From a virus, in UHGV virus genome UHGV-1402771: DNA of 25,192 bases; one strand, written 5' to 3'. Made by a program: the position numbers. Below are positions 1 to 3,000 of this stretch, in pieces. The first letter of the stretch is position 1. Each line of letters opens with the position of its first letter.

Positions 1-3000
1 AACAATTCAGGGATTAATGGAAGATGGCAGACATCATTGATTCAGCATCAGAAATTGAAGAATTACAGCGCAATACAGCAATAAAAATGCGTCGTCTGAA
101 CTACCAGACTATATCCGCCACTCATTGTTGTGAGTGTGGCGATCCCATAGATGAACGAAGACGCCTGGTCGTTCAGGGTTGTCGGACTTGTGCAAGTTGC
201 CAGGAGGATCTGGAGCTTATCAGTAAACAGAGAGGTTCGAAGTGAGCGAAATTAACTATCAGGCACTGCGTGAAGCGGCAGTAGCAATTGAAACAGTAGC
301 AACGCCTCAAAAATTGCTGGCATTTCGTATGAAAGTCACACCTCAGGTTGTGCTGGCACTGCTGGATGAACGGGAAAGAAACCAGCAATACATCAAACGC
401 CGCGACCAAGAGAACGAGGATATTGCGTTAACGGTAGGGAAGTTGCGCGTTGAGCTTGAGGCAGAAAAACAGCGGGCAAAGGATCTGTTTATGGAAAATG
501 CTCGGCTTAAGTCAGGTATAGCCGGTCTGATACACCTCGGTATTCGATATGCAGATGTTGAGGTCATGAGAATTGCTGGAGATGCCCAGCTTTCTACCCC
601 ATGCACTGACAGCATCATAAACAGCATTGCAACAGGCATTCGCATCAAAGGAGAGTGATATGAGCGCTATAACCAAAGAACGTATCAAATTATTCATTAA
701 AAATCCGCTTGATAACGGACTTACTCGTGGCGAACAAATGGAACTGGCACGAATTGCACTGGCATCACTGGAAGCAAAACCAATAGGTGCATTCCACATT
801 GCAGAACAGCAAGTTGACGGCACAAGTGACTACCTCAAGGATGGAGAATGGCCTATTGATAATGGAATTATTGAGGTCTACGCCGCTCCCCCCGTTCCAG
901 TAGTACCGGAAGAAAAACCAATGCCTAATCCTCTTAGCATGTACGCGGTCGATGCTGTTGCCGCTATTGCAGAGGTGAGAGGCTGGAACGCCTGCCGTGC
1001 CGCTATGCTTCAGGGAAAAGGATAGTGATATGACCACTATAACCGATAAGAAACAGTATCCAGGCGAGCAATATCTTAATGAGCTAATCACCAACATAGA
1101 GTTTGCTGCAAGGGCACCAGTTGAAGTCGTGAGAGCGATGGCAGCAGAGCTACAGAAGCGGCGCGAAGCTGATAGAGCAGAACCTGTAAGCCAAACTTAC
1201 AAGTTGCCTCCCCTGTCATCCAACGAAGTAAACGACGCGGCATGGAAATTACACAACATGCTGACTGAACACGGCCCGCTAAATGGGCGTCAGTTCAACA
1301 ATCTGAAAGGTTGCTTCTATGAGGCATTAAAGGCCGCAATGCGCAACTCTCCGGTAACTCCGGATGGTTGGATAAGCTGTAGTGAGCGAATGCCCCCTCA
1401 AGATGATTGGATTTTAATTTATTCAAAGCACGGCGAGTATATGGCAGGACAGGTACAAGGGGAATACGTGGAGTTGAGCGACGGCACTTTATCGTGGTTA
1501 GGGAACGCCTTGTTCTGGATGCCGCTACCAGAACCGCCGCAGGAGGCGAAATGATGGATGTAAAAGAGAAGGTTTTGCAGGTGATGCGTTCCCGGGCTGC
1601 CCTGCAAGATAAAGCTCTCGGCGGGGAATATCCATTCAGGATGGCAACCTGGAATCTGCGGTTGGCAATGGAGAAGGAATTTCCTGATGAAGAATGGCGT
1701 TCGGCAGATTTGCGCAAAATTCTTATGGAGCTGGCTAAAGACGGAACAGTATCCAAAGATACCCATGCCAGCCGGATTGGTCAGGCGGTATGGAGACTGG
1801 AGGTGAGGTAATGGCTAACCTGCAACTTGCCGTTAAAGGTGAATACTTCGATGCCATGATTCGCGGAGAGAAAACGGAAGAGTATCGCCTGTGTAATGAC
1901 TACTGGAATAAGCGAATTATGTTCCGCGAGTATGACCGCCTGATTATCACAAAGGGATATCCGAAGCGCGACGATTCCAGCCGTAGAATTGATGTTCCGT
2001 ATGACGGATATGAAATCAAGACAATCACACATCCGCACTTCGGCGATAAACCGGTAAAGGTGTTCGCGATAAAGGTGAATATCAGCAATGAATAACAATC
2101 CTCGCATTCGCGGGGATTTCTTTTATCTGAACTCGCTACGGCGGGTTTTGTTTTATGGAGATGATAAATGCACTTCCGAGTCACAGGTGAATGGAATGGA
2201 GAACCATTCAACAGAGTTATCGAAGCAGAGAACATCAATGACTGCTATGACCACTGGATGATATGGGCGCAGATAGCACATGCAGACGTAACCAATATTC
2301 GAATTGAAGAACTGAAAGAACACCAAGCCGCCTGATGGCGGTTTTTTATTGCCTGATTTGCAGGTTCGATTCCCTATTTGGAGATAGCACTCATGCAACA
2401 CGAACTACAGCCTGATTCACTGGTTGATTTGAAATTCATCATGGCTGATACTGGCTTTGGTAAAACCTTCATCTATGACCGGATTAAGTCCGGGGACCTG
2501 CCTAAAGCCAAAGTTATCCACGGGCGAGCAAGATGGTTATATCGTGACCATTGTGAATTCAAAAATAAGCTCTTAAGCCGCGCCAATGGGTAAAATAGCG
2601 GGTAAAATATTTTTCACATCTAAAAAACACCATTCCAATCAATCCCCTGCCGCTTCAAGTAGATGTCTGCAGGGGACACCATTTATCAGTTCGCTCCCAT
2701 CCGTACCAGTCCGCAAAATCCCCTGAATATCAAGCCTTCCGTAGATTTACAGTTCGTCATGGTTCGCGTCAGATCGTTGACAGCCGCACTCCATGACGGG
2801 TAAAAAGTGGATAAAATAATTTTACCCACCGGATTTTTACCCATGCTCACCGTTAAGCAGATTGAAGCAGCAAAGCCGAAAGAAAAACCATACCGCCTTC
2901 TCGATGGTAATGGCCTGTACCTTTATGTCCCTGTGTCAGGGAAAAAGGTATGGCAGCTTCGCTACAAGATTGACGGTAAGGAGAAAATCCTGACCGTCGG

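What the first reader, a model, noticed from the sequence alone, without database searches (positions are those of the whole stretch)
2355..2373. Second tRNA-Arg fragment (T-arm-like) upstream of xis, separate from the core
ATTTGCAGGTTCGATTCC matches the T-arm of argW (AATTGCAGGTTCGATTCC with one extra T) but lies about 300 bp left of the acceptor-end core, with xis in between. It could be a relic of an earlier imprecise excision, or an extra recombination or binding site. I cannot tell which from sequence alone.
Basis: seen in the sequence. Interest (0 to 1): 0.4.

Follow-up and report, generated by a model that had tools for sequence, protein, structure and literature searches.

The report
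Conserved tRNA-arm box before excisionase gene
A 16-base copy of part of the host arginine-tRNA gene sits just upstream of this phage's excisionase gene; it is not a recent scar or a second crossover site but a short box kept by selection in many related phages and prophages, probably a regulatory binding site whose function is untested.

Summary
Window 2358-2373 (TTGCAGGTTCGATTCC) is identical to E. coli argW bases 46-61. The attP core at 2667-2682 carries argW bases 61-75, so the two pieces abut in the tRNA, with xis (100% identical to TorI) between them.

The window is a CUS-3-like P22-type phage with the well-studied KplE1/HK620/Sf6 IntS-TorI recombination module.

The fragment is not a lineage-specific relic. 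A box (CA)GGTTCGATT(C/T)CC lies 29 nt upstream of the xis ATG in at least 8 enterobacterial genera. It occurs in two diverged RDF/integrase families that share only the argW core. It is far more conserved than the left flank or four-fold sites of xis, is sometimes tandemly duplicated, and has been lost several times.

No use as a crossover site was found: 0 of 5,426 E. coli genomes and no phage or viral contig has either predicted junction. Published in vitro excision works with a 135-bp attR that lacks it.

Best reading: a conserved cis-regulatory box in the xis leader that copies the tRNA-side (B) half-site of attB. It is probably bound by the integrase core-binding domain or the RDF. That function is inferred, not shown.

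GenBank's CUS-3 record labels this box "attR core" and thereby omits xis.

The parts
2325..2347 (+). Intrinsic terminator hairpin (AAGCCGCC-TGAT-GGCGGTTT + T run) ending the upstream ea-gene block; left neighbour of the box
   Evidence: Terminator scan. The same segment is annotated 'tL4 terminator' in HK022 record X51962 (H24). It is shared with lambda-type modules up to about 2351-2361.
2349..2361 (+). TTGC-N5-TTGC (TTGCCTGATTTGC). Annotated in HK620 as the cII-binding site of a predicted integration promoter pI. Its second TTGC supplies the first 4 bases of the 16-nt argW match.
   Evidence: HK620 annotation. Lambda-type relatives have cTTGCgtgtaaTTGC (N6) at the same place. The first TTGC is polymorphic (TTAC/TTTC) in many relatives.
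2358..2373 (+). The finding: 16 nt identical to argW bases 46-61 (T-stem 5' strand, T-loop and the first 2 nt of the T-stem 3' strand). The part conserved across genera is CAGGTTCGATTCC (2361-2373), with GTTCGATT (2364-2371) invariant.
   Evidence: identity; conservation, fixed distance of 29 nt from GTTCG to the xis ATG.
2380..2384 (+). Shine-Dalgarno GGAGA of xis, 6 nt downstream of the box
   Evidence: Read from the sequence. GGAG is conserved in the 38-leader alignment.
2393..2593 (+). xis = TorI-type recombination directionality factor, 66 aa, identical to E. coli K-12 TorI / HK620 HkaC
   Evidence: ORF list; identical translation in K-12-type loci; RefSeq annotation as torI; 100% identity hits.
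2587..2609 (+). P-arm integrase arm-type repeats, GGGTAAAAT x2
   Evidence: Repeat search. Panis 2010 describes a TAAA-containing arm-type motif.
2667..2682 (+). attP core CTGCAGGGGACACCAT (argW 61-75 plus T), the published crossover core of KplE1/HK620/Sf6
   Evidence: HK620 and Sf6 'attP core' annotations; 16-nt core quoted in PMC2951348.
2689..2776 (+). Five RDF (TorI) sites I1-I5 with cores GTTCG, GTCCG, GTTCG, GTTCG, GATCG at 2689, 2709, 2752, 2762 and 2772, in the same orientation as the GTTCG of the box
   Evidence: Motif scan. Spacing and pentamers match the description in PMC2951348.
2797..2843 (+). P'-arm integrase arm-type repeats (GGGTAAAAA, GGATAAAAT, and TTTTACCCA x2 inverted), overlapping the int promoter region
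   Evidence: PMC2951348.
2843..4000 (+). int, IntS-type (P4-like, Arm-DNA-bind_3) tyrosine integrase
   Evidence: ORF; annotated intS or integrase in relatives; Pfam families of a homologue's product.

Best explanation
The fragment is the E. coli-lineage version of a conserved cis-acting box, (CA)GGTTCGATT(C/T)CC. The box forms the upstream edge of the xis (RDF) leader in recombination modules that integrate into the 3' end of argW.

The box reproduces the part of argW immediately 5' of the crossover core, which is the tRNA-side "B" core-type half-site of attB. The most likely mechanism is that it is a DNA site for the module's own recombination proteins. The first candidate is the core-binding/catalytic domain of the IntS-type integrase, which must recognise this same sequence in attB. 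The second is the winged-helix RDF, through the GTTCG pentamer. Occupancy would feed back on xis expression.

What is shown:
- The sequence identity to argW.
- Deep conservation at a fixed position.
- Independence from the left flank.
- Dispensability for recombination in vitro.
- Absence of recombinant junctions.

What is inferred:
- That a protein binds the box.
- Which protein binds it.
- That binding regulates xis.

The origin, whether ancient capture or mimicry of the argW T-arm, is also inferred.
For: 1. 16/16 identity to argW 46-61, abutting the core's argW 61-75.
2. The box is present in HK620, Sf6, CUS-3-like prophages and K-12 KplE1. It is also present in Enterobacter, Citrobacter, Serratia, Pantoea, Edwardsiella, Hafnia and many IMG/VR contigs whose left flanks are unrelated.
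3. Mean pairwise identity of the box columns is about 0.9, against 0.52 at four-fold sites of xis and 0.36 in the left flank. The 8 central columns were used as the anchor, so they are conserved by construction.
4. The same box, 29 nt from the ATG, occurs in a second RDF/Int family. That family has RDFs 37-49% identical to TorI, arm-type repeats GGGCATAA and an integrase 57-64% identical, and shares only the argW core. Counts are 55/76 and 37/53 unique leaders.
5. In L390 the P'-arm repeats are RTTACC rather than GTTCG, yet the box is GTTCGATTCCC. The box therefore tracks the shared attB/core rather than the RDF site type.
6. The attP C half-site in other lineages is TT(C/A)G(A/G)TGT(A/C) next to TGCAGGG. 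This is related to the tRNA's TTCGATTCC, as expected if TTCGAT is part of the integrase core-type determinant.
7. Tandem second copies exist in L129, L132, L133, L136 and L014.
8. The box contains GTTCG, the pentamer mutated to define TorI sites, in the same orientation as I1-I5.
9. The torI promoter and its regulation were described as uncharacterised (PMC2951348).
Against: - No binding or expression data exist for this site.
- It is a lone half-site with no convincing inverted partner, and integrase core-type half-sites bind weakly on their own.
- The box is more invariant than the attP C half-sites of the same elements, which an integrase-affinity argument alone does not explain.
- TorI binding to attL is highly cooperative over five sites, whereas here there is one.
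- The box has been lost in several lineages: Klebsiella Chronis, L018, L020, L021, Cronobacter and others. It is therefore dispensable.
- The fixed distance to the SD/ATG and the 84% pairing potential with the SD region would also fit an RNA-level role.
- All modules found target argW, so co-variation of the box with a different tRNA could not be tested.
Confidence: 0.35

Rival explanations
1. RDF (TorI) operator. The box is a sixth TorI site, placed in the xis leader so that the excisionase represses its own synthesis, or a promoter that reads through xis into int.
For: - GTTCG is the pentamer that defines TorI sites, and it has the same orientation as I1-I5.
- I1 (CAGTTCGCTCCC) resembles the box.
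- Some leaders read CAGTTCGATT, which is less tRNA-like but still GTTCG.
- TorI is already known to repress PintS.
Against: - The box persists unchanged in L390-type modules whose P'-arm repeats are RTTACC, not GTTCG.
- Conservation extends over 11-13 nt (ATTyCC, CAG), far beyond what the five mapped sites share.
- There is a single copy, and where there are two the periods are 13-16 nt, not the 10/20-nt phasing of the cooperative attL sites.
Confidence: 0.15
2. RNA-level element. In the xis mRNA the box (GGUU..AUUYCC) pairs with the SD and spacer (GGAGAU..AACC) and limits translation of the excisionase.
For: - 84-85% of cells are paired in the proposed 10-bp helix, against 64% or less when the partner is slid.
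- The Citrobacter-type leader folds this way with z = -3.35.
- The distance of the box to the SD/ATG is fixed.
Against: - RNAalifold predicts no consensus structure.
- There is no covariation, and the observed score is below almost all shuffles.
- The central pair is broken in 25 of 38 leaders.
- The E. coli, Edwardsiella and double-box leaders fold differently or not better than shuffles.
- GGTTCG stays invariant even where its proposed partner AACC is absent.
Confidence: 0.12
3. Neutral relic. This is a scar of an old aberrant integrase-mediated or illegitimate event that fused the argW B half-site to phage DNA, carried along without function.
For: - The match ends exactly where the crossover core begins, as expected for a break at the top-strand cleavage point.
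- The box sits at a mosaic boundary (Sf6 'bsq2 boundary sequence').
- It is dispensable in several lineages.
Against: - A neutral 12-mer would not stay about 90% identical while four-fold sites of the adjacent gene are at 52% and the flank at 36%.
- It would not be kept in two diverged module families and at least 8 genera.
- An old capture remains possible as the origin, but not as the present status.
Confidence: 0.1
4. Part of a CII/C1-activated integration promoter (pI), as annotated in HK620. TTGC-N5-TTGC would be the activator site, the box the -35/-10 spacer and TATTTG a weak -10. The transcript would start after the xis SD, so that Int but not Xis is made.
For: - HK620 annotation.
- Lambda-type modules have the real pI cII box at the same place after the same terminator.
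- Arsenophonus L025 has a lambda-like TTGCGTGTAATTG there.
Against: - The spacing is N5, not the canonical N6.
- The first TTGC is TTAC/TTTC in many copies, and the second TTGC is absent outside the E. coli lineage (TTCC, TTTC, GACA).
- The promoter scan finds nothing here.
- A promoter spacer is not normally sequence-constrained.
- The box occurs in contexts with no such repeats (Edwardsiella, Serratia, Hafnia).
Confidence: 0.08
5. A second, functional attachment or crossover site. This is the CUS-3 GenBank view, in which the 16-bp direct repeat with argW is the att core.
For: CP000711 annotates bases 1-16 (inside argW) and 40192-40207 (this box) as the attL and attR cores.
Against: - The box lacks the TGCAGGG overlap and the right half-site.
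- In CUS-3-like lysogens (IHE3034, APEC O1), torI and the true core follow the box before dsdC.
- 0 of 5,426 genomes carry the argW::torI junction.
- There are 0 xis-less attP junctions in IMG/VR and none in GenBank phages.
- Published work places the crossover in CTGCAGGGGACACCAT.
Confidence: 0.02

Closest known systems
KplE1 (CPS-53) / HK620 / Sf6 / CUS-3 IntS-TorI recombination module at argW (Panis et al. 2007, 2010; PMC2951348, PMC3509656)
   Same: The window carries this module: a TorI-identical xis, the 16-nt core CTGCAGGGGACACCAT, five GTTCG-type RDF sites, GGGTAAAAT arm-type sites and an IntS-type integrase, in the order xis-attP-int. The box is present upstream of torI in K-12 itself.
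   Different: The described module comprises attL, attR, intS and torI. The box upstream of torI is not among the mapped sites in the papers I could read. The torI promoter is called uncharacterised, and the 135-bp attR used in vitro excludes the box.
Lambda pI / cII box at the start of xis
   Same: It occupies the same position after the same terminator, and TTGC repeats are present. The logic of expressing int without xis is the basis of the HK620 annotation.
   Different: The spacing is N5, the repeats are not conserved, and the tRNA-like 12-mer has no counterpart in lambda.
tRNA-derived direct repeats flanking P4-like prophages and genomic islands (attL/attR duplications of a tRNA 3' end)
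   Same: The sequence copies the target tRNA, and in a lysogen it forms a 16-bp direct repeat with argW.
   Different: It lies outside the crossover core, 293 bp from it with xis in between. It does not take part in strand exchange and is not needed to regenerate the tRNA.
RDF/integrase autoregulation through att-overlapping promoters (PintS repression by IntS and TorI)
   Same: The proposed logic is the same: recombination proteins bind sites next to a recombination gene and set its expression.
   Different: Here the site is not part of attL or attR, and the regulated gene would be the RDF rather than the integrase. It is untested.

Membership tests
tRNA gene or tRNA pseudogene fragment | Sequence identity to a stretch of a tRNA gene | tested here: met
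   16/16 with argW 46-61.
tRNA gene or tRNA pseudogene fragment | Recognisable cloverleaf, or at least an intact T stem-loop | tested here: not met
   ARAGORN finds 0 genes and Rfam gives no tRNA hit. The 3' partner CCCTA cannot pair with GCAGG.
att core (site of strand exchange) of the IntS module | Identity with attB across the overlap region, flanked by inverted core-type half-sites | tested here: not met
   Identity stops at ...GATTCC, exactly before TGCAGGG. The sequence that follows is CTATTTG GAGATA.
att core (site of strand exchange) of the IntS module | Recombinant junctions formed at the site | tested here: not met
   0 of 5,426 E. coli genomes, 0 in IMG/VR, and only two-piece matches in GenBank phages.
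att core (site of strand exchange) of the IntS module | Required in the recombination substrate | tested here: not met
   Published in vitro excision uses a 135-bp attR that starts at primer CTCTTAAGCCGCGCCAATGG (window 2570-2589), downstream of the box (PMC3509656).
TorI (RDF) binding site | GTTCG/GATCG/GTCCG pentamer in the orientation of sites I1-I5 | tested here: met
   GTTCG at 2364-2368 on the + strand; I1-I5 at 2689-2776 on the + strand.
TorI (RDF) binding site | Arrays with 10/20-nt phasing that support cooperative binding | tested here: not met
   There is a single copy in the window. Where duplicated, the periods are 13-16 nt.
TorI (RDF) binding site | The site follows the RDF's specificity when that changes | tested here: not met
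   L390 has P'-arm repeats RTTACC but the box is GTTCGATTCCC.
TorI (RDF) binding site | Protein binding | not testable with these tools
   Needs EMSA or footprinting.
Integrase core-type half-site (B type) | Sequence equals the attB half-site adjacent to the cleavage point | tested here: met
   The box ends at argW base 61, where the core begins. The related C half-sites TT(C/A)G(A/G)TGT(A/C) are seen.
Integrase core-type half-site (B type) | Partner half-site in inverted orientation across a 7-bp spacer | tested here: inconclusive
   GAGAT(A/G) lies 7 nt downstream in many leaders but matches GACACC at only 3 of 6 positions, and it is the SD.
Integrase core-type half-site (B type) | Integrase binding | not testable with these tools
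   Needs EMSA or footprinting with IntS.
CII-activated promoter (lambda pI/pRE type) | TTGC-N6-TTGC straddling a -35 region, with a weak -10 about 17 nt downstream | tested here: not met
   The spacing is N5. The repeats are polymorphic or absent in relatives. No promoter-like match was found.
SD-sequestering leader hairpin | Conserved pairing supported by covariation | tested here: inconclusive
   84% paired against 64% or less when slid, but no covariation and no RNAalifold consensus.
Rfam STnc130 sRNA (antisense strand) | Score at or above the family's gathering threshold | tested here: not met
   27.3 bits against 55, on the minus strand at 2316-2443.

The most novel reading that the evidence does not exclude
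argW-specific recombination modules keep, in front of their excisionase gene, a copy of the tRNA-side half of their own bacterial attachment site. This attB mimic would be read by the integrase's core-binding domain (or by the RDF), so that xis expression is coupled to the amount of free recombinase. That would be a feedback element outside attL/attR that has not been described for tyrosine-integrase modules.
Probability: 0.25. Interest if true: 0.55.

Novelty: new variant of a known kind. Interest (0 to 1): 0.4.

Why it matters
The IntS/TorI module is a model for how prophages at tRNA genes control excision. The published view is that the switch depends on RDF expression, whose control is unknown. 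A conserved, attB-like box at a fixed position in the RDF leader is a concrete, cheap-to-test candidate for that missing control point. K-12 carries it upstream of torI.

There is also a practical point. The box creates a 16-bp direct repeat with argW that has already misled annotation: the CUS-3 reference record ends at the box and so lacks its excisionase gene and true attR. Prophage-boundary tools that rely on direct repeats may make the same error.

Tried and rejected
1. Chance match. Rejected on arithmetic and on conservation.
2. Hidden tRNA or pseudogene. ARAGORN and Rfam are negative.
3. Alternative crossover site. A chimeric argW::torI query, the reciprocal xis-less junction pattern and a phage search were all negative.
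4. Conserved RNA structure. RNAalifold gives nothing, and two explicit helix models show pairing potential but no covariation. Single-sequence folds are inconsistent.
5. Sigma-70 promoter at the box. None was found. Hand-checked -35/-10 readings give wrong spacing.
6. TorI operator as the general explanation. This is weakened by the L390 lineage, which has RTTACC-type P'-arm repeats with an unchanged box.
7. Search for relatives that target another tRNA, to test co-variation of box and T-loop. Every RDF relative retrieved, down to 33% identity, still uses the argW core. A generic pattern scan for T-loop + SD + ATG in IMG/VR found the box only before xis genes of these two RDF families; the other hits lay in tRNA genes or had a perfect T-arm, so looked like tRNA-derived fragments.
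8. Papers that would list the mapped sites (JBC 2007, Virology 2010, PNAS 2013, J Bacteriol 2007 on CUS-3) are not held.
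Full report
**What the window is.** The left part reads: ea-type small genes (+), a 55-codon ORF (2168-2335), a hairpin terminator (2325-2347), the finding, xis (2393-2593), an attP core, int (2843-4000), then on the minus strand neuO and an endosialidase tailspike. neuO has its heptanucleotide repeat at 4886-4950. This is a CUS-3-like P22-type phage in its circular (attP) arrangement. The xis-attP-int segment is 97-99% identical to HF4s, N7, Sf6, HK620 and IME10 and to torI/intS of E. coli chromosomes. The xis product is identical to K-12 TorI. This is the KplE1/HK620/Sf6 recombination module studied by Panis, Ansaldi and colleagues. That work reports a 16-nt core CTGCAGGGGACACCAT, integration in argW, five TorI sites and several arm-type IntS sites on attL, and intS repressed by IntS and TorI (PMC2951348).

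**Check of the observation.** TTGCAGGTTCGATTCC is at 2358-2373 and occurs once. argW read from an E. coli chromosome is gtcctcttagttaaatggatataacgagcccctcctaagggctaaTTGCAGGTTCGATTCCTGCAGGGGACACCA. The fragment is therefore argW 46-61, and the attP core at 2667-2681 is argW 61-75. The two phage pieces partition the last 30 nt of the tRNA gene exactly, with 293 bp containing xis between them. The base before the match is a substitution (T for A), not an insertion, and the 18-mer starts at 2356. No tRNA is detected. About 7e-4 such exact 16-mer matches are expected by chance, so the match is not chance.

**Distribution.** The fragment is in every close relative, including the defective K-12 prophage KplE1 just upstream of torI. 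Homology with phages carrying other integrase modules (lambda-type, HK022, Stx phages) stops at 2347-2361, immediately left of it. The box is thus the first element of the module.

I then fetched TorI relatives from one genome per species and from IMG/VR. In Enterobacter, Citrobacter, Serratia, Pantoea, Edwardsiella and Hafnia, and in many uncultivated contigs, the leader of xis contains (CA)GGTTCGATT(C/T)CC followed after 5-8 nt by GGAG. The DNA to the left is unrelated from lineage to lineage. Only the E. coli lineage has the extra TTGC that lengthens the tRNA match to 16 nt. Serratia and Pantoea instead extend two bases to the right (…GATTCCTG).

Across 18 representative leaders the box columns have about 0.9 mean pairwise identity. 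The left flank has 0.36 and four-fold degenerate sites of the adjacent xis have 0.52. The eight central columns served as the anchor, so they count for less; their neighbours CAG and YCC were not anchored and are also conserved. Several contigs have two tandem boxes, for example CAGGTTCGATTCCCgtCAGGTTCGATTCCCatcGGAG. Several lineages have lost the box: Klebsiella phage Chronis (where xis overlaps the upstream gene), L018, L020, L021, Cronobacter and others.

**A second family.** A pattern scan for T-loop + SD + ATG in IMG/VR turned up the same leader in front of a quite different RDF, MRELRDDSLIDMKFM…, whose family members are 37-49% identical to TorI. Retrieval of that family showed modules with different arm-type repeats (GGGCATAA), an integrase 57-64% identical to the window's and the same argW core. 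In 37 of 53 unique leaders the box GTTCGATT(C/T)CC is present, 29 nt from the ATG. In the TorI family the count is 55 of 76. The box therefore belongs to argW-specific modules in general, not to one RDF.

**Is it a crossover site?** GenBank's CUS-3 record (CP000711) starts at TTGCAGGTTCGATTCC inside argW ("attL core") and ends at this box ("attR core"). It therefore contains no xis. In CUS-3-like lysogens such as IHE3034 and APEC O1, the box is followed by torI, the true core and then dsdC. So the record's right end is set about 310 bp too early.

I tested whether the 16-bp repeat is ever used:
- A chimeric query joining argW (through GATTCC) to the torI leader matches no single place in any of 5,426 complete E. 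coli genomes.
- The reciprocal xis-less junction CTGATTTGCAGGTTCGATTCCTGCAGGGG is absent from IMG/VR.
- In GenBank phages the same junction is found only as two pieces, with xis in between.
- Published in vitro excision uses a 135-bp attR whose left primer lies at the 3' end of torI (window 2570-2589), so the box is not needed for the reaction (PMC3509656).

**What might it do?**

*RNA-level role.* RNAalifold gives no consensus. A hand-built helix in which GGUU..AUUYCC pairs with GGAGAU..AACC is 84-85% paired, against 64% or less for slid controls, but shows no covariation. Single leaders fold inconsistently. GGTTCG stays invariant where its proposed partner is missing. I rate an RNA role possible but weak.

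*Promoter.* HK620's record annotates 2348-2386 as a cII-dependent pI with the binding site TTGCCTGATTTGC. Lambda-type modules have the genuine TTGC-N6-TTGC at the same place. Here the spacing is N5, the repeats vary or are absent in relatives, and no promoter-like match is found. A spacer would not be conserved in any case.

*RDF operator.* The box contains GTTCG, the pentamer mutated to define TorI sites, in the same orientation as I1-I5 at 2689-2776. I1 (CAGTTCGCTCCC) resembles it. However, in L390, a phage-form contig of the second family, the P'-arm repeats are RTTACC rather than GTTCG while the box is still GTTCGATTCCC. TorI binding is also highly cooperative over five phased sites.

*Integrase core-type site.* What all box-bearing modules share is attB. 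The box is exactly the tRNA sequence that abuts the crossover core, that is, the B half-site. The corresponding attP half-site C reads TT(C/A)G(A/G)TGT(A/C)|TGCAGGG in other lineages, related to the tRNA's TTCGATTCC|TGCAGGG. This suggests that TTCGAT is part of what the integrase core-binding domain reads.

*Ranking.* I therefore rank [quoted passage not shown] first, with modest confidence. No binding or expression data exist, the site is a lone half-site, and it is dispensable in several lineages.

**Origin.** Even granting selection for GTTCG, the further matches (ATTCC, CAG) make an independent origin unlikely, at roughly 1e-5. The box is therefore either descended from argW DNA or held to it by a protein that reads both. 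A break exactly at the left edge of the crossover core is what an aberrant integrase strand transfer would leave.

**Comparison with what is known, and novelty.** The module is well known. The sequence has been noticed three times under other labels: a pI promoter in HK620, part of boundary sequence bsq2 in Sf6, and "attR core" in CUS-3. In the literature I could read, the torI promoter is called uncharacterised and no site upstream of torI is described. I class it as a new variant of a known kind: a recombination-protein-type site outside the att regions. Interest is moderate.

Noticed in passing
GenBank CP000711.1 (L004 1-16; L002 1859-1874), equivalent to window 2358-2373: The CUS-3 reference record defines its attL and attR cores as the 16-bp repeat TTGCAGGTTCGATTCC. 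It therefore ends before torI/xis and the true core CTGCAGGGGACACCAT. In CUS-3-like lysogens (IHE3034, APEC O1), torI, the core and dsdC follow. RS218 itself was not checked.
   Followed up: partly
window 4886-4950 (neuO, minus strand, ORF 4240-4953): There are 9.3 perfect copies of the heptanucleotide GAGTCTT (AAGACTC on the coding strand) at the 5' end of the polysialic-acid O-acetyltransferase gene neuO. The ORF is open with this copy number, which would correspond to the 'on' phase of the known phase-variable gene.
   Followed up: no
L374-L453, e.g. L390, L431, L456: A second argW-targeting module family was found. Its RDF starts MRELRDDSLIDMKFM… (37-49% identical to TorI), its arm-type repeats are GGGCATAA, and its integrase is 57-64% identical to IntS. 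Its subgroups differ in the P'-arm direct repeats (GTTCG/GTTCT, RTTACC, or GAAC on the other strand), which suggests that RDF specificity has switched within one family.
   Followed up: partly
L132, L133, L136, L129, L014 (leaders of xis): These leaders carry two tandem copies of the T-arm-like box with periods of 13-16 nt, for example CAGGTTCGATTCCCgtCAGGTTCGATTCCCatcGGAG.
   Followed up: partly
window 2316-2443, minus strand: There is a sub-threshold Rfam match to the Enterobacteria sRNA STnc130 (27.3 bits against a gathering score of 55; full model length). It is antisense to the xis start, the box and the terminator. The similarity lies mainly in the terminator and the stretch after it. 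An antisense RNA over the xis leader is a lead only.
   Followed up: partly
E. coli genomes, e.g. NZ_CP082824.1 1538688-1539488 (H41): Fourteen complete E. coli genomes hold torI-attP-intS contiguously (at least 80% of window 2100-2900 in one place). That is an attP-type junction inside a chromosome, as expected for tandem prophages at argW.
   Followed up: no
window 2586-2726 (+), 46-codon ORF: This ORF spans the attP core. It is annotated as a gene in HK620 (hkaB) and Sf6 (gene 17), but integration would split it, and it overlaps arm-type, core and RDF sites. It is probably not a real gene.
   Followed up: no
window 2351-2366 and 2410-2425: GCCTGATTTGCAGGTT, which overlaps the box, is repeated at 13 of 16 positions as GCCTGATTCACTGGTT inside xis (codons QPDSLV). 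It may be chance.
   Followed up: no
L009 (Klebsiella phage Chronis) 1730-1765; L014-L023 attR regions: In non-E. coli lineages the attP half-site left of the core reads (A)TTCGATGTA|TGCAGGG. This resembles the tRNA T-loop TTCGATTCC|TGCAGG, whereas the E. coli lineage has GTAGATGTC. In some hosts the identity with the tRNA ends before CCA (…GGGGACACttg, …GGGGACAtatc).
   Followed up: partly
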